Below, in pieces: positions 2,039 through 11,039 of a stretch of DNA of 64,000 nt; the first letter of the stretch is position 1; the number at the start of each line of letters is the position of its first letter. Location of the stretch: contig OZ241889.1 of the NCBI GenBank assembly GCA_965203355.1, forward strand, positions 2,112,001-2,176,000, read 5' to 3'. The position numbers and the translations under genes are program-made. Origin of the DNA: Candidatus Latescibacterota bacterium (GTDB lineage: Bacteria; Latescibacterota; UBA2968; UBA8231). The notes under the pieces are model-generated. The model worked only from the letters and a program-made list of their open reading frames with translations. It had not been told where the DNA came from and searched no databases.

Positions 2039-5000
2039 ATGGACCGTATAAAAGAGGCGATACGCGCCACCCTTGCGAAAATTCCGCTGGGCGATTTTGC
2101 CGCGATAGCGCAAGATTTGTTAGCGGTCCTCGGCTATCGCAGCGCGCGTACGCTGGGCGGGCAGACGGGCGATGTGGCCGATTTCATCGCGCAGTTTCCC
2201 ATCCCGAAACCAAATACCAAGACTGAACTGGCATTCCGTGAGCAGGTCCAATCGGTGCGGCTCGTCTTTCAGGTGACAAGCGACGAAATTACCGCTGGGT
2301 TTGAAGCCCATTCCTTCGACAAAGGACAACAGCAGAGCTTCCTCTTTTTCGCCGTTGAACTCAAGGAAGCAACCTATCCTCGCGGCGAGTACGCGCAGTT
2401 CACCCGCGAAATCAACAAGCGCCTGAGTCAACCCTGCGTCGTTTTGTTCAGCACGGCCAATCATCGGCTCTCGCTGTCCTTTGTCCATCGCCGCGAGCAC
2501 AAGCGCGATCAACAGCGCGATGTGCTGGGTCGCGTGTCGCTGATACGGGAGGTGGACCCGACCCATCCCCACCGCGCCCATTTGGACATTTTGGCCGCCC
2601 TATCGCTGGCCAAGTGCGCGGATTGGCTAGGCCGCCATAACAAGCCGCACAATTTTGACGGGCTACTGGCCGCTTGGCTGGACAAACTGGACACCGAGGA
2701 ACTCAATCGTCAGTTCTATGACGAGCTGTTCGCTTGGTTCAAGAAAGCAGTCGCGGAAGCGAAGTTCCCGGCGACCGCATCGGCCGAGCAGCAGGTCATT
2801 CGGCTGATCACTCGCATCCTGTTCGTCTGGTTCATCAAGGAAAAGGACTTAGTCCGCGAGGAGTGGTTCGCACCCGCCGAAATGGAAAAGCTGCTGTGCA
2901 ACTTTGGCGGGTCCGACTACTACCGCGCTGTCTTGCAGAATCTTTTCTTCGCAACGCTCAACACCGAGATAGACGCGCGTGGTTTCAGCACCCAGACCGA
3001 GCCTAGCCACCGGGTTTTTTCGCGTTTCCGCTACCAATCGCTCATCCGCGATACAGCGCGATTCGAAGAGCTGATGCAGCAGACGCCATTCATCAACGGC
3101 GGCTTGTTCGACTGTTTGGACGACGAGGAATCGACAAGCGCCGGGGGCAGACGCATGGATATGTTCAGCGATCCCGATCCAAATGACGGTCCGCGCGCTG
3201 CCCAAGCGCGCCGCGAGGCGTGGCGAGAACTGAACGTTCCTGATGCCCTGTTCTTCGACCAGAGCGATGGGCTGTTTCCCCTGCTCAACCGCTACAAGTT
3301 CACGGTGGAGGAAAACACGCCCGTAGAGCAGGAAGTCGCTCTGGACCCGGAATTGCTCGGCAAGGTCTTTGAGAACTTACTGGCGGCCTACAACCCGGAA
3401 ACGCGCGAGACAGCGCGCAAGCAGACTGGCTCTTACTACACGCCGCGCGTCGTGGTGGATTACATGGTGGAGGAAGCCTTAGTCGCCGTGTTGACGGAAA
3501 AAGTGCCGCCCGACGATGGCGAAGTGGCGTATTGGCAAGAGCGATTGCGCTATTTGCTGGATTACGAAGACGCATTCGCCGACGCCAATGATCTTTTTGA
3601 AGAGGCCGAAGCCGAGGGCGTTGTGCGAGCGATTGCCGAGATCAAGGTGTTGGATCCGGCGGTCGGCTCTGGGGCGTTTCCAATGGGCATATTGCACAAG
3701 CTGACCTTGGCGTTGCAGCGGCTTGATCCTGACAATCAGCGTTGGCAAGCACTGCAAAAGAAACGGGCCAGACAACGGGCGGACGCGACGTTTGAAACTC
3801 ACGATCGGCAGAAACGCGATGCCGAGTTGCTGGAGATTAGTAAAACGTTCGAGCGGTATTCGGGCGATTTCGGGCGCAAGCTCTACTTGGTTCAAAACAG
3901 CATCTTTGGCGTAGATATTCAGCCGGTGGCCTGCCAAATCGCCAAGTTGCGCTTTTTCATTTCGCTGGCGATTGAGCAAGAAGCCGGGCGAGAAAGTGCC
4001 GACAACTTTGGCATCAAGCCGCTGCCCAATCTGGAGACGCGCTTTGTGGCGGCGAATACGCTGTTGAGCCTTGACAAGCCAGGCCAACTTAGTCTCGAAA
4101 GGGATGTGGTGAACCAGCTAAAACGGAAATTGAATGAAAACCGCGAGCAGCATTTTCACGCTACTACGCGCCAACAAAAATTGGACTGTCGGGAGAAGGA
4201 TGCGGAACTACGCGCAGCCTTGGCGGTGGAGTTGAAAGGAGTCGTCTTTTCGCCCGATACGGCGGAAAAAATTGCACGCTGGAATCCCTACGATCAGAAC
4301 GCTGTTGCCGATTGGTTTGACGCTGAGTACATGTTCGGCGAGCGTGGGGGATTTGATGTGGTGATTGGGAATCCGCCGTACATTCAGTTGCAGAAAAATG
4401 GCGGTGAATTAGGTAATCTCTACAAGAATGCCGGCTACGAAACTTTCGCCCGCACCGGCGATATATACCAACTTTTCTACGAGCGCGGTTGCCGGTTGTT
4501 CAGGCAGGATCAGGGCCTATTGGTCTATATCACCTCTAATAGCTGGCTCAAGGCCGAATACGGCAAAGCTCTGCGGCGCTATCTATCTGAGCGGCACACG
4601 CCGCTACGCCTGCTGGAAATGGGCAAGGATGTTTTTGAGAACGCCATTGTTGATACCAACGTCTTGATCGCACGTGGGGGCCACCATAAGACAACTGGCA
4701 AGGCTATAGATATGGATCGTTTGTCCGATAAATCTTTCCCGCCTGCCGAGTCTCTTTGGGGCGAACTGCGCCCGCAAGGTGAAAAGCCGTGGAGTGCGCT
4801 GTCGGCCATTGAACAGTCGATTATGGACAAGATGGAAGCTGTTGGAACGCCGCTGAAAGAGTGGGATATTGCGATTAACTACGGAATTAAGACCGGCTAT
4901 AATGCTGCCTTTATCATTGATGAAAAGACTAAAGAATCGCTGATCGCCGAAGATCCGCGCTCGGCCGACATTATCAAGCCCGTGCTGCGAGGGCGGGACA

Positions 5001-5623
5001 TAAAACGTTACCGAGCAGAGTGGGCGGGGTTGTGGATGATTGACGCGCATAACGGATACGATAGTATTCCTGCTGTTGATATTGACGAATACCCAGCCAT
5101 CAAAAATCATTTGGACAAGTTTTATCCCCAACTGAAAAAGCGACAAGATAAAGGCAGGACACCGTACAATCTCCGTAATTGCGCTTACTACGAAGTATTT
5201 GAAAAAGAAAAGCTATTTTGGATGCACATGGCACCGAGAGGTAGATTCGCATATTCCGACTCGGAGACTATTTTCTGTAACCAAAAGGCATTTGTTGTGA
5301 TCGGACATTCTCTCAAGTACCTCTGTGCGGTCTTGAATAGTCGTCTCATAACTTGGCAGGTCAAGAATATCGCAGTAACGACCGGTATGGGACTTACTCA
5401 ATGGGATAAATTCGTGGTAGAACGCCTACCCATTCCCCAAATATCCACCACAGATCAGCAGACCTTCATCTCCCTAGTTGACGAAATCCTGAAGGCCAAA
5501 ACCGTCAACCCAAAAGCCAATACCAGTGATCAGGAAGCAGAAATTGATCGGCTAGTCTATACCCTTTACGGCCTGACCGAAAAAGAAATCGCTGCAATAG
5601 TACTAGCGGAAAATTGTGAGTGA
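2039..5623 (+). CDS. Type IIG-like single-chain restriction-modification enzyme (Eco57I-type N6-adenine MTase + TaqI_C-like specificity domain)
   Basis: Motif I 'VLDPAVGSGAF', motif IV 'DVVIGNPPY', 'KQTGSYYTPR', 'PFINGGLF', C-terminal 'EIDRLVYTLYGLT'; possible nuclease remnant 'FAVELK' near the N-terminus. Confidence 0.9.
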   Translation: MDRIKEAIRATLAKIPLGDFAAIAQDLLAVLGYRSARTLGGQTGDVADFIAQFPIPKPNTKTELAFREQVQSVRLVFQVTSDEITAGFEAHSFDKGQQQSFLFFAVELKEATYPRGEYAQFTREINKRLSQPCVVLFSTANHRLSLSFVHRREHKRDQQRDVLGRVSLIREVDPTHPHRAHLDILAALSLAKCADWLGRHNKPHNFDGLLAAWLDKLDTEELNRQFYDELFAWFKKAVAEAKFPATASAEQQVIRLITRILFVWFIKEKDLVREEWFAPAEMEKLLCNFGGSDYYRAVLQNLFFATLNTEIDARGFSTQTEPSHRVFSRFRYQSLIRDTARFEELMQQTPFINGGLFDCLDDEESTSAGGRRMDMFSDPDPNDGPRAAQARREAWRELNVPDALFFDQSDGLFPLLNRYKFTVEENTPVEQEVALDPELLGKVFENLLAAYNPETRETARKQTGSYYTPRVVVDYMVEEALVAVLTEKVPPDDGEVAYWQERLRYLLDYEDAFADANDLFEEAEAEGVVRAIAEIKVLDPAVGSGAFPMGILHKLTLALQRLDPDNQRWQALQKKRARQRADATFETHDRQKRDAELLEISKTFERYSGDFGRKLYLVQNSIFGVDIQPVACQIAKLRFFISLAIEQEAGRESADNFGIKPLPNLETRFVAANTLLSLDKPGQLSLERDVVNQLKRKLNENREQHFHATTRQQKLDCREKDAELRAALAVELKGVVFSPDTAEKIARWNPYDQNAVADWFDAEYMFGERGGFDVVIGNPPYIQLQKNGGELGNLYKNAGYETFARTGDIYQLFYERGCRLFRQDQGLLVYITSNSWLKAEYGKALRRYLSERHTPLRLLEMGKDVFENAIVDTNVLIARGGHHKTTGKAIDMDRLSDKSFPPAESLWGELRPQGEKPWSALSAIEQSIMDKMEAVGTPLKEWDIAINYGIKTGYNAAFIIDEKTKESLIAEDPRSADIIKPVLRGRDIKRYRAEWAGLWMIDAHNGYDSIPAVDIDEYPAIKNHLDKFYPQLKKRQDKGRTPYNLRNCAYYEVFEKEKLFWMHMAPRGRFAYSDSETIFCNQKAFVVIGHSLKYLCAVLNSRLITWQVKNIAVTTGMGLTQWDKFVVERLPIPQISTTDQQTFISLVDEILKAKTVNPKANTSDQEAEIDRLVYTLYGLTEKEIAAIVLAENCE
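4898..5029 (+). repeat. Long inverted repeat, copy 1 (inside the R-M gene)
   Basis: 132 bp matching the reverse complement of 6289-6420 with 3 mismatches (aat/aac, gat/gag, cgg/cga), aligned by hand. Confidence 0.95.
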
Positions 5624-5682
5624 ATCAGGATCTAACTGACTGCGAGGCAACTCTTTATGCGTCACCTTGCTAGCTGGAAGGT

Positions 5683-6449
5683 CTAAGGTAAAGGCCGTTC
5701 TTCCACTGCGGAAATCTCCATCGCCGTCAGCCCATACAATTCGTAAACCTGTAGATCAATCTCGGCTTCAGTGTCGGATATATCGGCGTTCAAATCAGTC
5801 TCTTTAGCCGTCAAGATGTGGTCAACTAAGCGGATAAATGGACGCTGCACAGCAGCGGGGATTTCAGGGATGGGTATGGTTGTAACGGAAGCATTGATCC
5901 ATCGCGTCACACCCATTCCAGAATTCAGAGCCGTTTTGCTCATAAACCAAGTTATCAGCTTTGAGTTGAGCAAAGCGCATAGATACTTGATCGATTGACC
6001 AGACATCACAAATCCTGTGTTCAAACAGAACATTCCATCTACATCGTAGGCAAATCTTCCTTGCTCTGTGAGGTCCATCCAAATCAACTTTTCTTTGGCA
6101 AAGTTCTCGTGAGTACCCGAACTGTAATAATCTACTTGTAGTTGCCACCATTCGTAAGGCACCTTTCCCGTCCTAGGGTTAGCTCCACCCCTTCGTTTCA
6201 AAAGTTGCTTCTTGTATGGCAGTAGATGCCTATGTACCGCGGGATATTCATTTTCGGCAATTTTAGAATGACTATAAATTAGCCATAGCCCCGCCCACTC
6301 TGCTCGGTAACGTTTTATGTCTCGCCCTCGCAGCACGGGCTTGATAATGTCGGCCGAGCGCGGCTCTTCGGCGATCAGCGATTCTTTAGTCTTTTCATCA
6401 ATGATAAAGGCAGCGTTATATCCAGTGAGCACCCCTCGATAAATCGCAA
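5683..6449 (-). other. Silent alternative C-terminal specificity (TRD) cassette for the Type IIG enzyme
   Basis: ORF 5683-6432 is homologous to residues ~945-1194 of the R-M enzyme and lacks the MTase; homology starts abruptly at 6449 with no evident RBS; the central TRD is divergent. Confidence 0.88.
6289..6420 (-). repeat. Long inverted repeat, copy 2 (5' part of the silent cassette)
   Basis: Reverse complement of 4898-5029. Confidence 0.95.
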
Positions 6450-6481
6450 AATATCACATTGCTCAAATAGTCATATTTTGC
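6446..6481. promoter_or_regulatory. Dyad GCAAAATAT-N18-ATATTTTGC; candidate recombinase-binding site or operator
   Basis: Perfect 9-bp arms at 6446-6454 and 6473-6481, between the cassette start and the integrase RBS. Confidence 0.45.
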
Positions 6482-6520
6482 AATCGCCTAAGACACTAAA
6501 ACCCTAACAAGGAGCTACCG

Positions 6521-7489
6521 TTGAGTTCTTTAGCCATGATTGAACAAGATTTCCATACCGAAGTCCTTTCCTCCGTATTGGCGACCAATACTCGTATTGC
6601 CTATGAGAAAGGATGGTCTCGGTTTTGCGACTACTGCACAAAAGAGCATATAGACGACCCATTATTGGCTTCCCCGGAACTGGTGGCACGTTTTCTCGTG
6701 CATAGCGCGACAAGGCCAAGCGAGCAAAGCGGTACCGTGCTATCTATGGGTACCGTGACGCTTTATAAGAGTGCCATCAACAAGAAATATACCGACGCCG
6801 GAAAGTCCTCCCCGACCAATCACCCCGTGGTCCGTGCCAGCCTCAAAGGGTTGGCCCGGCTCAAAGGGACCGCACGTCGTCGAGTAGAGGCCCTGAGAGA
6901 ATACCATATTCAAGCCATGCTTTCCCAATGTGCTGATACGACCATCGGTCGGCGCGACGCCGCCATAATGGCCCTTGGTTTCGCCGGTGCGCTACGACGC
7001 TCAGAAATATGCGGCCTAACTGTAGAGGATTTTGACTTCTTGGACCCCAACGAGGAAGCCAATCAGCGCATGTTTCTTACCATCCGCCGCTCCAAAACGG
7101 ATCAAGAGGGGAAAGGACAAACGATCGCGATCTTGGACGGCCGGGTGATCCGGCCCGTTCATCGGCTGAAAGTGTGGCTTAATGCGTCGGGGATCACACA
7201 CGGCCCCTTGTTTCAGACGATGAAACGGGGCGGCCATGTGCAGGGTAAGCCGCTGCACCATTCCGATATTCCACGCCTAGTCAAGCACTATGCGGCACGG
7301 ATTGGACTGGACCCCAAAGAAGTAGCCGGGCATTCCCTGCGGGCCGGTTTTGTCACCAGTGCCGCCGTGCATCGCGCCCGACTCGACAAAATCATGGCCG
7401 TCACCCGCCATACGAATCCGGCCACAGTCATGCAATACATTCGCGACGCCGATTCATTTACCGACCATGCCGGTGAAAATTTTTTATAA
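6521..7489 (+). CDS. Tyrosine recombinase/integrase (Cre-like), candidate invertase
   Basis: Catalytic set R (ALRRSE), K (RSKTDQ), HxxR (GHSLRAG), H (TRH), Y (MQYIR); TTG start with AAGGAG at 6509-6514. Confidence 0.92.
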   Translation: MSSLAMIEQDFHTEVLSSVLATNTRIAYEKGWSRFCDYCTKEHIDDPLLASPELVARFLVHSATRPSEQSGTVLSMGTVTLYKSAINKKYTDAGKSSPTNHPVVRASLKGLARLKGTARRRVEALREYHIQAMLSQCADTTIGRRDAAIMALGFAGALRRSEICGLTVEDFDFLDPNEEANQRMFLTIRRSKTDQEGKGQTIAILDGRVIRPVHRLKVWLNASGITHGPLFQTMKRGGHVQGKPLHHSDIPRLVKHYAARIGLDPKEVAGHSLRAGFVTSAAVHRARLDKIMAVTRHTNPATVMQYIRDADSFTDHAGENFL

Positions 7490-7556
7490 GTTTGTTTCGG
7501 GCACTTTCGCTACCTTTGGGGCGTTAGTCCAACGGCATTGTCCATGTTCACGGCGT

Positions 7557-7925
7557 AAATCCCGGGAGTCCTACTACGAATGCCTCCGGCTTAGCTCACA
7601 GCACTGGCACGACGGCAAACACGAACTAACGCCTTGGTTTAACTTCCTCTTCGCGATAGTCCGCCGCGCTTACGTCGAGTTGGAGGAACGCGCCGATCAG
7701 ATCAAGGCTCCGCGGGGTACTAAGTCCGACCGGGTACTCGCCGCCATCCGCGCCCAACCGGGCGCATTCCGCCTGAGTGATATAGAGCGCGATTGTCCCG
7801 GGGTGGGCCGCGAGTGGATTCGCACCCTCTTTGCGGAACTAAAGAAATCCGGCGACCTGGTTTGTAGCGGTCGCGGCCCGGGTGCGCGCTGGCGTTTTCG
7901 CGGGAATAAGGGTAGTAATACTTGA
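7557..7925 (+). pseudogene. C-terminal remnant of a Fic-family protein
   Basis: 'SRESYYECLRLSSQHWHDGKHELTPWFNF...FRLSDIERDCPGV...GRGPGARW' resembles the Fic C-terminus/wHTH; no HPFxxGNGR core and no start codon. Confidence 0.7.
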
Positions 7926-9436: not shown

Positions 9437-10032
9437 TGTCGGACTTTGACATATTACGGGATTTGATCCGGGATGAGGCATTGGCCTCGGTTGAGGATGA
9501 ATACGGCAAGGAGACTATTGTCCTGGAGGAACCTGGCAATCAACAACAATCAGCATATTCTCTGAAGATACGCAACGTGCCGGACGACTTTATCGCGTTC
9601 AAAATAGATGCTTTTCCGGCTCCAAGAAAAATCTTTAAAAACGATAAAGGAGAATGTAAACGGGCTGATTTTGTTATTATTGCCAGTGATGATAAGATAA
9701 ACTGGATTATTCACATTGAAATGAAAGGTGGCAACACAGGTTCGGGAAAAGAGATCAAGCAACAATTACGCGGGGCACGATGTCTCGTTGCCTACTGCCG
9801 CGCCATTGGTCGAGAATTCTGGCAAGAACCGAATTTCCTCAAAGAAAAAAATTACCAACAGCGTTTTATTAGTATTAAAAATATTCGGATACCAAAACGG
9901 CCAACACGGCCAGATTCAAAATCCGGTCAACACGACATGCCGGAAAACATGCTGAGAATCGACGGGTTGGCTAAAGGGAAATTACAATTTAACGAACTGG
10001 TCGGAAAAGCCTTAAAGAGACAAGGCCCATGA
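9433..10032 (+). CDS. Hypothetical protein with putative PD-(D/E)xK nuclease motif
   Basis: 'KRADFVII...IIHIEMKGG...IKQQL'; ATGA-coupled to the ATPase. Confidence 0.6.
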   Translation: MMSDFDILRDLIRDEALASVEDEYGKETIVLEEPGNQQQSAYSLKIRNVPDDFIAFKIDAFPAPRKIFKNDKGECKRADFVIIASDDKINWIIHIEMKGGNTGSGKEIKQQLRGARCLVAYCRAIGREFWQEPNFLKEKNYQQRFISIKNIRIPKRPTRPDSKSGQHDMPENMLRIDGLAKGKLQFNELVGKALKRQGP

Positions 10033-11039
10033 CCACCCTATTCGTCACCGGCGGCGCCGGCTTCATCGGCTCCAATTTTATTCGCTACTGGCTATCGACC
10101 TATCCCGACGACCGCATCGTCAACTACGACTTGCTCACCTACGCCGGCAACTTGGCCAGCCTGCAAGACGTGGAAGAAAGCTACGGCGACCGCTACACCT
10201 TGGTCCGCGGCGATATTCAAAATGTCGATCTGACCCGCCATCTCTTTGCGATCCACCGCCCCGACTACGTGGTCAACTTTGCCGCTGAATCGCACAACAG
10301 CTTGGCCATTGTCAATCCCTCGGCCTTTTTCCAGACCAATGTCGTGGGGACGCAAAAGCTGTTGCAGGCCGCGGCCGACGCCCAAGTGCCGCGCTTCCAC
10401 CACATCTCCACCTGCGAGGTGTACGGCGATTTAGCCCTGGACGCGGACGAGTCCTTCAGCGAGGAATCGCCCTATCGGCCGCGCACCCCGTACAACGCAG
10501 CCAAAGCCGCGGCCGACCTGGCTGTGCGCGCTTATGGCAACACCTTTGGCTTGCCGGTGACGCTGTCGAACTGCGCCAACAACTTCGGCCCCTATCAATT
10601 CCCGGAGAAAGTCATTCCCTTCTTCGTCGTGCGTCTGCTCACCGGCCAGAAGATGCCGCTGTACAAATCGAGTCAGAATCGCCGCGAGTGGCTCCACGTT
10701 GATGACCACTGTCGGGCCATTGACCTCGTGCTAAAAAAAGGCGAAATCGGCCAGACGTACAACGTTGGCAGCGGCATTGAAAAAGACGTTGAAACCATTG
10801 CCGACCTCATCCTCGACGCTTTGGGGATGGATGCCGGGCACAAAACCTACGTCGAAGACCGGCCCGGCCACGATCGGCGCTACCTACTCGATTCGCGCAA
10901 GATTCGCGCCGAGCTAGGTTGGCAACCGCAAGTCGATTTTGCCGCTGGCTTCCGCGATACGGTCCACTGGTACCGCGACAACGCAGCTTGGTGGCGTCCC
11001 CTGCTCAAGAAAATCCAAGTCCGCGAAGAGAGCTGGTGA
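10029..11039 (+). CDS. rfbB: dTDP-glucose 4,6-dehydratase
   Basis: '[12 protein letters not shown]', 'LTYAGN', 'NFAAESH', YxxxK 'YNAAK', 'FPEKVIP', 'DRPGHDRRY'. Confidence 0.93.

What the first reader, a model, noticed from the sequence alone, without database searches (positions are those of the whole stretch)
2039..7489. Invertible specificity switch (shufflon-like) on a Type IIG restriction-modification enzyme, with adjacent tyrosine recombinase
Seen: the R-M gene is followed tail-to-tail by a second copy of its last ~250 codons, which has no evident RBS. The two copies share a 132-bp inverted repeat (3 mismatches) and then diverge across the TRD (WMIDAHNG...YNLRNCAY...WMHMA versus WLIYSHSK...WWQLQVDY...WMDLT). 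Recombination in the repeat inverts the intervening DNA and gives an in-frame 1198-aa enzyme instead of 1194 aa, with the other C-terminus. An intact tyrosine recombinase starts ~70 bp from the cassette. Known: recombinase-driven TRD inversion phase-varies specificity in Type I hsdS loci (e.g. pneumococcal SpnIII). Inference: this is a phase-variable methylome/anti-phage switch on a single-chain IIG enzyme driven by a Cre-like recombinase, a much less described arrangement.
Basis: partly seen in the sequence, partly recalled or inferred. Interest (0 to 1): 0.92.

Follow-up and report, generated by a model that had tools for sequence, protein, structure and literature searches.

The report
Invertible specificity switch on restriction-modification gene
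A DNA-methylase/restriction gene carries a spare, backwards copy of its DNA-recognition end and a neighbouring recombinase that can flip the two; related bacteria carry the same locus in both orientations, but this kind of switch was already described in 2023.

Summary
A 1194-aa methyltransferase-specificity gene (2039-5623) is followed tail-to-tail by a start-less 249-codon copy of its C-terminus (5683-6432). The two share a 126-150 nt inverted repeat. A tyrosine recombinase with the catalytic residues in place follows (6521-7489). Inverting in silico gives an in-frame 1198-aa protein.

The best evidence is comparative. Six complete relatives in sponge-type MAGs of several phyla keep the same architecture. 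Their roughly 1.5-kb segment lies in both orientations (L005 versus L012 and L008; the window versus sister species L001). Silent cassettes evolve at dN/dS about 0.15, and the repeat arms evolve in concert within a locus.

- No nuclease domain could be shown in the protein. In all six complete relatives an HKD(PLD)-SNF2 gene sits upstream, so it is probably not a self-contained Type IIG enzyme.
- Relatives have a second repeat, and two specificity modules reassort.
- The arrangement is in print: Milman et al. 2023 confirmed programmed inversions on Type II R-M genes with long reads, including ones with an upstream PLD-SNF gene.

Flipping within this population was not testable. Verdict: real, a new member of a known kind, moderate interest.

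The parts
2039..5623 (+). Expressed methyltransferase-specificity gene, 1194 aa. Domains: DUF4391-like N-terminus (aa 58-172), MmeI-type helical spacer, gamma-class N6-adenine MTase (motif I DPAVGSGAF at aa 539, NPPY at aa 778; Eco57I domain aa 620-866), TaqI_C-type TRD (aa 980-1132).
   Evidence: (PADLOC REase_MTase_IIG PDLC03601, E 3.6e-147).
4892..5041 (.). Left arm of inverted repeat IR1, inside the expressed gene. Near-exact core 4904-5029. The 19-nt segment 4914-4932 is the only stretch exactly shared by both arms in all 7 loci compared, so it is the likely crossover site.
5030..5197 (+). Variable module A of the expressed TRD (type A1, 'IDAHNGY...LKKRQDKGRTPYNLRN').
5198..5253 (.). Left arm of the second repeat IR2 ('FEKEKLFWM' region). 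It is degenerate in this window (56 nt, 71%) but well kept in relatives.
5254..5623 (+). Variable module B (type Ba) plus the C-terminal helix of the expressed TRD.
5683..6432 (-). Silent, start-less C-terminal cassette (249 codons, TaqI_C domain; modules A2 + Bb). Its frame is closed upstream by TGA at 6454-6456.
   Evidence: dN/dS 0.16 against the expressed L008 cassette.
6047..6102 (.). Right arm of IR2 (degenerate in this window).
6277..6426 (.). Right arm of IR1. The core 6289-6414 and the 19-nt segment 6386-6404 mirror 4914-4932.
6521..7489 (+). Tyrosine recombinase, 322 aa, with R159, K192, H271, R274, H297 and Y306. AAGGAG lies 6 nt before the TTG start.
   Evidence: (PF00589, E 4.9e-16).

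Best explanation
This is a programmed, gene-altering DNA inversion switch.

Mechanism. The adjacent tyrosine recombinase pairs the two inverted IR1 copies. The likely site is the 19-nt core at 4914-4932 and 6386-6404. It inverts the roughly 1.45-kb segment between them. That swaps the expressed C-terminal target-recognition domain (modules A1+Ba, 1194-aa protein) for the parked one (A2+Bb, 1198-aa protein). The DNA sequence that the methyltransferase recognises changes, and with it the methylome and whatever restriction depends on it.

The target protein. It is a DUF4391-like / helical-spacer / gamma-N6A-MTase / TaqI_C-TRD fusion. It most likely works with an HKD(PLD)-SNF2 nuclease-helicase encoded upstream, as in its relatives, rather than cutting DNA itself.

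Shown: the anatomy, the in-frame product, conservation of the architecture, both orientations among relatives, purifying selection on silent cassettes, and concerted evolution of the arms.

Inferred: that the neighbouring recombinase is the catalyst, that the two TRDs read different sequences, that this copy still flips, and that restriction is provided in trans.
For: Anatomy and in-frame 1198-aa product.

Conserved architecture. The genome-contig scan with the recombinase gave 14 loci.
- 6 (L002, L004, L005, L007, L008, L012) show MTase gene, then inverted cassette, then recombinase in full.
- 3 more (L001, L003, L006) are cut by a contig end but show the cassette directly upstream of the recombinase.

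Both orientations.
- L005 8382-9931 aligns to L012 9896-8349 reversed (87.7%, 1550 nt) between collinear flanks (79.6% and 83%).
- L005 against L008 shows the same (70.9%, 1599 nt reversed).
- Window 4886-6096 aligns reversed to L001 1243-32 (79%, 1217 nt), while the recombinase and downstream DNA are collinear. L001 is a syntenic sister species: flanks are 88-90% identical and the GMD gene downstream is 94% identical in protein.

Module positions. Module A1 is expressed in 3 of 7 complete loci, counting the window, and silent in 4 of 7.

Site-specific crossover. In L005 and L012 the arms share only 19-20 exact nt, and the swap maps there.

Concerted evolution. Arm identity within a locus is 91-100% in 5 of 7 loci, against a between-locus mean of 75.7% over 98 pairs.

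Selection. dN/dS was 0.13-0.19 in the 7 of 10 cassette pairs that gave a value, including silent-silent pairs.

Recombinase. The catalytic motifs LR.SE and H..R.GF are present in 120 of 120 listed family members.

Partner gene. HKD+SNF2 lies upstream in 6 of 6 complete loci.

Precedent: Milman 2023.
Against: No direct evidence that this population holds both orientations. The four runs laid are k=31 contigs that break at the repeat.

No near-identical protein with the flipped C-terminus is on record; the best match is 72% identical. The metagenome scan found nothing above 49%.

The window's IR2 is degenerate, so only two states are possible here.

The long repeat (126 nt, 2 mismatches) would also allow RecA-dependent inversion.

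No nuclease domain was found in the protein: Foldseek gave 0 PDB hits at E<=0.001, and the 'ELK' motif is not conserved.

The upstream partner gene cannot be seen, because the window starts inside the AlbA_2 gene.

In L005 and L012 arm identity is only 65-67%. L005's two cassettes look frameshifted.

dS is saturated (above 1, or undefined in 3 of 10 pairs), so the dN/dS values are rough.
Confidence: 0.8

Rival explanations
1. The inversions seen among relatives come from general (RecA-type) homologous recombination across the repeat. The neighbouring recombinase would then be a bystander, for example an island integrase or a resolvase.
For: The window's arms are 124 of 126 identical, long enough for homologous recombination. 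IR1 and IR2 share no obvious common motif. The nearest plasmid homologues (<=42.6% identity) are annotated only as site-specific integrases.
Against: The recombinase is linked to the cassette in 9 of 14 loci, across several phylum-level lineages as labelled in the records. In 3 further loci it is linked to a different inverted gene pair. In L005 and L012 the arms share only 19-20 exact nt, yet the segment is swapped exactly there.
Confidence: 0.08
2. Frozen relic. The locus flipped occasionally in evolutionary time, but this copy no longer switches and the cassette is a stored remnant.
For: No within-population evidence. No flipped protein on record. IR2 has decayed in the window, and module A2 is an orphan type (<=36% to all other modules).
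Against: The cassette is open over 249 codons. The recombinase keeps its six catalytic-type residues over a full-length 322-aa frame. The arms are 98% identical, while synonymous sites between loci are saturated. Silent cassettes elsewhere are under purifying selection.
Confidence: 0.1
3. The protein is a methyltransferase only, a phasevarion-type epigenetic switch without restriction. The inversion would then change gene regulation rather than phage defence.
For: No nuclease fold or motif was found in the N-terminal 430 aa. No partner nuclease is visible in the window.
Against: HKD-SNF2 nuclease-helicase lies upstream in 6 of 6 complete relatives. The locus sits beside another defence pair, PD-T4-4/PDC-M47. 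PADLOC Type IIG models match at E 3.6e-147.
Confidence: 0.2

Closest known systems
Gene-altering programmed inversions on Type II R-M genes (Milman, Yelin and Kishony, NAR 2023, PMC9881135). Class (b): Cj0031 homologues, e.g. B. ovatus CP083813.1 with an upstream PLD+SNF CDS, and the 'solitary' NZ_CP082886.1.
   Same: A large MTase-containing R-M gene is the inversion target, through inverted repeats and a truncated inverted paralogue. In relatives of this window a PLD+SNF2 gene sits immediately upstream, as in their Table 3. Eco57I-domain proteins are enriched among their predicted targets (odds ratio 15.98). I read passages only.
   Different: Their confirmed loci are in Actinobacteria, Bacteroidetes, Firmicutes and Proteobacteria. 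This family, by the record titles, is in Latescibacterota, Gemmatimonadota, Rhodothermales, Caldilineaceae and Binatia MAGs. I could not fetch their sequences, so homology to their loci is untested. Their supplementary tables, which may already list such loci, were closed.
Type I hsdS inversion systems: S. pneumoniae SpnD39III with CreX/PsrA, and the B. fragilis system. Details are recalled; only the search listings of PMC7641763 and PMC7672463 were seen.
   Same: A tyrosine recombinase lies next to silent, promoter-less specificity cassettes. The repeats lie in the conserved stretches that flank the variable TRD modules. Two modules reassort.
   Different: Here the TRD is the C-terminus of the roughly 1200-aa MTase protein, not a separate HsdS. 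No HsdS, HsdM or HsdR genes are present.
BREX type 1 PglX inversions in Lacticaseibacillus (Milman 2023, passages read).
   Same: An inversion with an adjacent recombinase changes part of a roughly 1200-aa Eco57I-type adenine methyltransferase of a defence system.
   Different: P0001 scores 89.8 bits against a 500-bit cut-off for BREX-1 PglX. No brx or pglZ genes were seen. In PglX a middle part is swapped by nested inversions; here it is the C-terminal end.
C. jejuni Cj0031 Type IIG enzyme (Anjum et al. 2016; seen only as a citation).
   Same: A phase-variable enzyme of the Type IIG kind with an effect on the methylome.
   Different: Its switch is on/off slippage of a polyG tract, not an exchange of TRDs by inversion.
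MmeI-family Type IIL/IIG enzymes.
   Same: The domain order is N-terminal domain, helical spacer, gamma MTase, TRD. The MmeI_hel domain is found in 8 of 28 family members.
   Different: There is no MmeI_N hit, only an Atlas lead at 0.84, which is below its 0.9 line. The N-terminus is DUF4391-like.

Membership tests
Gene-altering programmed inversion locus | Inverted repeats that overlap a CDS and a truncated inverted paralogue | tested here: met
Gene-altering programmed inversion locus | Recombinase gene in or beside the invertible region | tested here: met
   The linkage is conserved in 9 of 14 loci.
Gene-altering programmed inversion locus | Both orientations exist in nature with breakpoints in the repeat | tested here: met
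   (L005 versus L012 and L008; window versus L001).
Gene-altering programmed inversion locus | Both orientations coexist within one clonal population | not testable with these tools
   Only k=31 Logan contigs were available. They break at the repeat, and the inverted state creates no new 31-mers.
Type IIG restriction-modification enzyme | N6-adenine MTase motifs and a TRD in one polypeptide | tested here: met
   Eco57I domain E 8e-34, TaqI_C E 8.2e-14. DPAVGSGAF at aa 539 and NPPY at aa 778.
Type IIG restriction-modification enzyme | Endonuclease domain in the same polypeptide | tested here: inconclusive
   AF2 model of aa 1-430: pLDDT 82.3. Foldseek against the PDB: 0 hits at E<=0.001. The 'ELK' motif is not conserved. 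There are only sub-threshold DUF4391 hits (11 of 28 members) and an MmeI_N lead at 0.84.
Type IIG restriction-modification enzyme | DNA cleavage by the single protein | not testable with these tools
   This needs an enzyme assay.
Tyrosine recombinase (Xer/Cre type) | Catalytic R-K-H-R-H-Y set and the Phage_integrase domain | tested here: met
   PF00589 E 4.9e-16. Alignment to XerD 1a0p. R159, K192, H271, R274, H297, Y306.
Named DNA-invertase families (FimB/E type, NCBIfam NF007371) | Score at or above the curated cut-off | tested here: not met
   17.2 bits against a 222-bit cut-off. All 7 NCBIfam hits are below their cut-offs.
Type I hsdS shufflon | A separate HsdS specificity subunit with HsdM and HsdR | tested here: not met
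   No Methylase_S, HsdM or HsdR hits among the 8 proteins scanned.
BREX-1 PglX | NCBIfam BREX_1_MTaseX at its cut-off, and brx/pglZ neighbours | tested here: not met
   89.8 bits against 500. The neighbours are AlbA_2, ParA, a recombinase and PD-T4-4.
HKD(PLD)-SNF2 + methyltransferase two-gene system | HKD-SNF2 gene next to the MTase gene | tested here: inconclusive
   Present in 6 of 6 complete relatives. It is not visible in the window, which begins inside the AlbA_2 gene, and no whole genome is held.

The most novel reading that the evidence does not exclude
The recombinase plus its repeats may form a portable inversion module that has spread across phyla in sponge-type microbiomes and serves more than one kind of target gene. 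In most loci it would shuffle two independent specificity modules (A x B, through IR1 and IR2) of an HKD-SNF2-linked methyltransferase, giving up to four specificities. In Binatia, a 66%-identical recombinase sits beside inverted pairs of porin-like outer-membrane genes instead. Together these would be a shared toolkit for varying both defence specificity and a possible phage receptor.
Probability: 0.35. Interest if true: 0.6.

Novelty: new member of a known kind. Interest (0 to 1): 0.45.

Why it matters
It gives a well-documented natural example of specificity switching on a large methyltransferase-TRD protein in uncultured, host-associated bacteria. Both states are caught in sister genomes, and the crossover maps to about 19 nt. 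That makes a testable recombinase/site pair, and a set of natural TRD modules (A1, A2, A3; Ba to Be) whose recognition sequences could be read from long-read methylomes. It extends the range reported by Milman et al. 2023 to other lineages. It also suggests that the 'Type IIG' label for this protein family hides a two-gene system with an HKD-SNF2 partner. It does not open a new category.

Tried and rejected
Direct test of flipping. The look-up of sequencing runs gave 5 runs from 3 studies. I laid 4 of the 5 (X1, X2, X4, X5), all of them Logan contigs.
- In X1 and X2 the contigs end at 4933, 5000-6318, 6289-6414 and 6385. Those are the edges of the exact repeat, as any k=31 graph would give.
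- The depth of the 126-nt contig fits a collapsed repeat.
- None of this carries orientation information.
- X4's G>A at 4996 is best explained by bubble-popping of the two arms.
- X5 has one contig running unbroken from 5623 to 7511 and little cover over 4517-5622. That may mean a strain with a different expressed C-terminus, but a part without cover is no finding.

Looking for the flipped allele.
- P0003 searched against longer proteins: 5723 hits at E<=0.001 among 6905 candidates, best 72% identity. No flipped allele.
- Metagenome contigs with P0003: 43 loci, best 42% over the full length and 49% over a part.
- Megablast of 2039-7489 against plasmids: no match.

Other negatives.
- No whole genome is held.
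- Nuclease search: PDB by sequence found only MTases (BseCI, CamA-type, TaqI). Foldseek of the N-terminal model gave nothing significant; six tRNA-splicing-endonuclease chains at E 0.26-1.7 are noise-level.
- The 19-nt IR1 core was sought in the porin loci L009-L011: no match of 13 or more of 19.
- Rfam: 0 matches in the window.
- The promoter and terminator scans were at chance level.
- Literature searches found no paper on this family in sponge symbionts and nothing useful on DUF4391. Absence of print rests on these four searches only. Supplements were closed.
- I considered BREX, DISARM and Type I membership and rejected them (see the membership table).
Full report
OBSERVATION.
- The 1194-aa ORF 2039-5623 (+) is followed, tail to tail, by a 249-codon ORF 5683-6432 (-). 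A 322-aa ORF 6521-7489 (+) comes next.
- The two convergent ORFs share an inverted repeat. Its arms are 4892-5041 and 6277-6426, 150 nt, 94% complementary. The other 12 inverted pairs in the first 12 kb are 20-56 nt at 70-85%.
- In register, 4898-5029 has three mismatches and 4904-5029 has two.
- Reverse-complementing the segment between the arms in a script gives an open frame of 1198 aa in place of 1194 aa.
- The silent copy has no start of its own in the homologous region. Its frame is closed by TGA at 6454-6456, seven codons before the GTG that the ORF finder picked.
- No further cassette exists in the window.

WHAT THE GENES ARE.
The large protein.
- It has an Eco57I-type methylase domain (aa 620-866, E 8e-34) and a TaqI_C specificity domain (aa 980-1132).
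- Motif I is at aa 539 and NPPY at aa 778.
- It matches PADLOC 'REase_MTase_IIG' models at E 3.6e-147.
- It is far below the NCBIfam cut-offs for BREX PglX: 89.8 bits against 500.

The silent ORF is a TaqI_C domain too (E 6.6e-17).

The third ORF.
- It is a tyrosine recombinase (PF00589, E 4.9e-16).
- It aligns with XerD and, more weakly, with Cre.
- It has R159, K192, H271, R274, H297 and Y306.
- AAGGAG lies 6 nt before its TTG start.
- None of the 7 NCBIfam models it touches reaches its cut-off, so the family has no curated name.

COMPARATIVE EVIDENCE. This is the core of the case.

The recombinase family is strikingly conserved. The 120 best clusters are 67-100% identical and nearly all are 322 aa long.

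A scan of one genome per species found 14 loci. By their record titles, all are MAGs of Latescibacterota, Gemmatimonadota, Rhodothermales, Caldilineaceae, Binatia, Poriferihabitaceae and a betaproteobacterium. By tblastn they sort as follows:

| Loci | What they show |
|---|---|
| L002, L004, L005, L007, L008, L012 (6) | Full order: MTase gene, inverted cassette, recombinase |
| L001, L003, L006 (3) | Cut by a contig end, but the cassette lies right before the recombinase |
| L009, L010, L011 (3) | No MTase gene |
| L013 (1) | Broken recombinase |
| L014 (1) | Contig stub |

The window's chromosome is 88-90% identical to the genomes holding L001, L002 and L003. The same GMD gene follows the recombinase there, at 93-94% protein identity. 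Those loci are therefore orthologous.

Both orientations occur.
- L005 against L012: collinear up to 8476/8483 (79.6%). Then L005 8382-9931 matches L012 9896-8349 reversed (87.7% over 1550 nt). It is collinear again from 9785/9790 (83%).
- L005 against L008 shows the same.
- Window 4886-6096 matches sister-species L001 1243-32 reversed (79%, 1217 nt), while 6277-7553 and the downstream DNA are collinear.

At protein level the TRD has two variable modules separated by a second conserved stretch.

| Locus | Expressed | Silent |
|---|---|---|
| window | A1Ba | A2Bb |
| L004 | A1Ba | A3Bd |
| L005 | A1Bc | A3Bb |
| L002 | A3Ba | A1Bb |
| L007 | A3Bd | A1Be |
| L008 | A3Bb | A1Bc |
| L012 | A3Bb | A1Bc |
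| L001 | ?Bb | A1Bc |

Identity within a module type:

| Module type | Identity within the type |
|---|---|
| A1 | 66-89% |
| A3 | 73-93% |
| A2 (window's silent copy only) | at most 36% to any other module |
| Ba | 83-86% |
| Bb | 73-86% |
| Bc | 77-92% |
| Bd | 66% |
| Be | single member |

- A1 is expressed in 3 of 7 complete loci and silent in 4 of 7.
- A and B modules are not linked. A1 is found with Ba, Bb, Bc and Be. That fits a second exchange point.

THE REPEATS.
- IR1 lies at the same codons in L002 (183 nt, 85%), L004 (176 nt, 88%), L007 (177 nt, 94%) and L008 (171 nt, 91%).
- Over the 126-nt block, arm identity within a locus is 98.4% (window), 100% (L007), 95.2% (L008), 93.7% (L004) and 91.3% (L002). 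It is only 65.1% in L005 and 66.7% in L012. The mean between loci is 75.7% over 98 pairs.
- The arms therefore evolve in concert in most loci.
- The only stretch exactly shared by both arms in all seven loci corresponds to window 4914-4932, 19 nt. In L005 and L012 it is almost the whole repeat, and the swap between those two genomes maps to it. This favours a site-specific crossover there.
- IR2 (the 'CAYHE.F.KEKL.WM' region) carries locus-specific codons shared by both arms. Exact runs are about 49 nt in L001, 37 in L002, 36 in L004 and 33 in L007.
- In the window IR2 is only 56 nt at 71%, because module A2 is of another type. The window probably has two states, while relatives may have up to four. 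That IR2 exchange is by inversion, rather than by conversion or transfer, is inference.

SELECTION. Outside IR1, cassette pairs give dN/dS of 0.13-0.19 in the 7 of 10 pairs where dS was defined. These include silent against silent: L012 with L008 gives 0.14, and L012 with L001 gives 0.16. dS is saturated, so the figures are rough, but silent copies clearly evolve as proteins.

IS IT A TYPE IIG ENZYME?
- The N-terminal 430 aa is a widespread unit: 1704 cluster representatives at E<=0.001, mostly in proteins of about 1200 aa.
- An AlphaFold model from 28 sequences is confident (pLDDT 82.3, pTM 0.78). It has no PDB match at E<=0.001.
- The one PD-ExK-like motif ('AVELK') varies among members.
- Pfam sees only sub-threshold DUF4391 (11 of 28 members) and the MmeI helical spacer (8 of 28).
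- The Atlas gives MmeI_N as a lead at 0.84, below its own 0.9 line.
- In all six complete relatives an HKD(PLD)+SNF2 gene lies upstream of the MTase gene. Its Pfam hits are PLDc_2, NgoFVII-type PLD, SNF2 and Helicase_C; PADLOC 'HKD+Snf2' matches at E 1.5e-100.
  - It is directly upstream in L002 and L007. In L004 and L008 it ends about 150 and 940 nt before the MTase gene.
  - In L005 and L012 it lies further up, after insertions.
  - In L013 it is next to the broken recombinase.
- The window starts inside an AlbA_2 gene. With a ParA-like gene, that gene separates the MTase from whatever lies upstream. L012 shows the same two genes, and there the helicase lies further up. The partner cannot be checked here.
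- I therefore treat the protein as the methylation/specificity component of a two-gene system and leave 'Type IIG' unconfirmed.

COMPARISON WITH WHAT IS KNOWN. Milman, Yelin and Kishony (NAR 2023, PMC9881135; passages read) report:
- Eco57I-domain proteins enriched among predicted inversion targets (odds ratio 15.98).
- 22 loci confirmed by long reads, 11 of them with Type II R-M enzymes.

This is the same kind of system. I could not fetch those sequences or see their supplementary tables, so whether it is the same family remains open. Four literature searches found no description of this family in sponge-associated lineages.

VERDICT. The finding is real and well supported at the family level. 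Flipping in this very population is untested. The class has been in print since 2023. The additions here are:
- natural genomes caught in both states;
- a crossover mapped to 19 nt;
- two-module reassortment;
- the HKD-SNF2 partner;
- spread across phyla;
- a second target for the same recombinase family.

I rate it a new member of a known kind, with interest 0.45.

Noticed in passing
L009:4543-7777, L010:6196-9972, L011:6535-9876 (recombinase at 10001-10969 in each): In three Binatia loci, a recombinase 66% identical to the window's sits beside an inverted pair of 457-519-aa genes instead of an R-M gene. The pair has no Pfam family. The two L011 proteins I translated carry a signal peptide and end in ...EYRF, which is porin/OMP-like. 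The genes are joined by very long repeats (L011: 942 nt at 99%) that include the terminators. This may be a second target class for this recombinase family. The IR1 core motif is absent there.
   Followed up: partly
window:8042-10032: A two-gene defence pair matches PADLOC PDC-M47A/B and PD-T4-4_A/B (E 1.3e-217 and 2.1e-66). Its GC is 0.44, against about 0.62 for the rest of the window. It is absent at this spot in the sister loci L001-L003 and present after the recombinase in L006. It looks like a recent insertion.
   Followed up: partly
window:1-2000: An AlbA_2/HATPase_c_4 gene (5'-open) overlaps a ParA-like ATPase gene by 4 nt, directly before the MTase gene. Only L012 shares this pair (63% and 75% identity). 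It is not a conserved partner.
   Followed up: partly
L002:2491-5511: The HKD-SNF2 ORF runs on in frame into a PemK/MazF-type toxin domain (aa 894-996, E 1.2e-26). This is either a fusion or a missed stop.
   Followed up: no
L005:1673-3292 and L012:1180-2756; window upstream of base 1: A separate ORF carries a paralogue of the MTase protein's N-terminal DUF4391-like domain (47-48% identity), fused to sigma-70 regions 2-4 (PADLOC MzaA, E 2.8e-35). In runs X1 and X2 a 2645-nt contig joins a 38-nt match of window 2260-2297 to DNA about 470 nt before the window's start. This hints at a similar paralogue upstream of the window.
   Followed up: no
L013:7049-10611: A decayed version of the locus. The HKD-SNF2 gene is followed directly by a recombinase that lacks aa 144-256, and there is no MTase gene.
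   Followed up: no
L005:3814-4980 and L005:8337-9931: An IS transposase (DDE_Tnp_1_4, E 2.2e-132) lies between the helicase and the MTase gene. Both TRD cassettes end early (223 and 225 aa from the common register start, where the other full cassettes run 247-284 aa) with split tblastn hits. These are either frameshifts or assembly errors.
   Followed up: no
L001 versus L002 and L003: The record holding L001 is titled Gemmatimonadetes. Its genome nonetheless matches the window's flanking DNA at 89%, just as the two Latescibacterota-titled genomes do. One of the taxonomic labels is probably wrong.
   Followed up: no
window:7520-7925: The 191-aa ORF 7350-7925 overlaps the recombinase's end. Only its last 135 or so residues are conserved (78-80% identity) before the GMD gene in L002, L003 and L006. 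The real gene is probably shorter.
   Followed up: no
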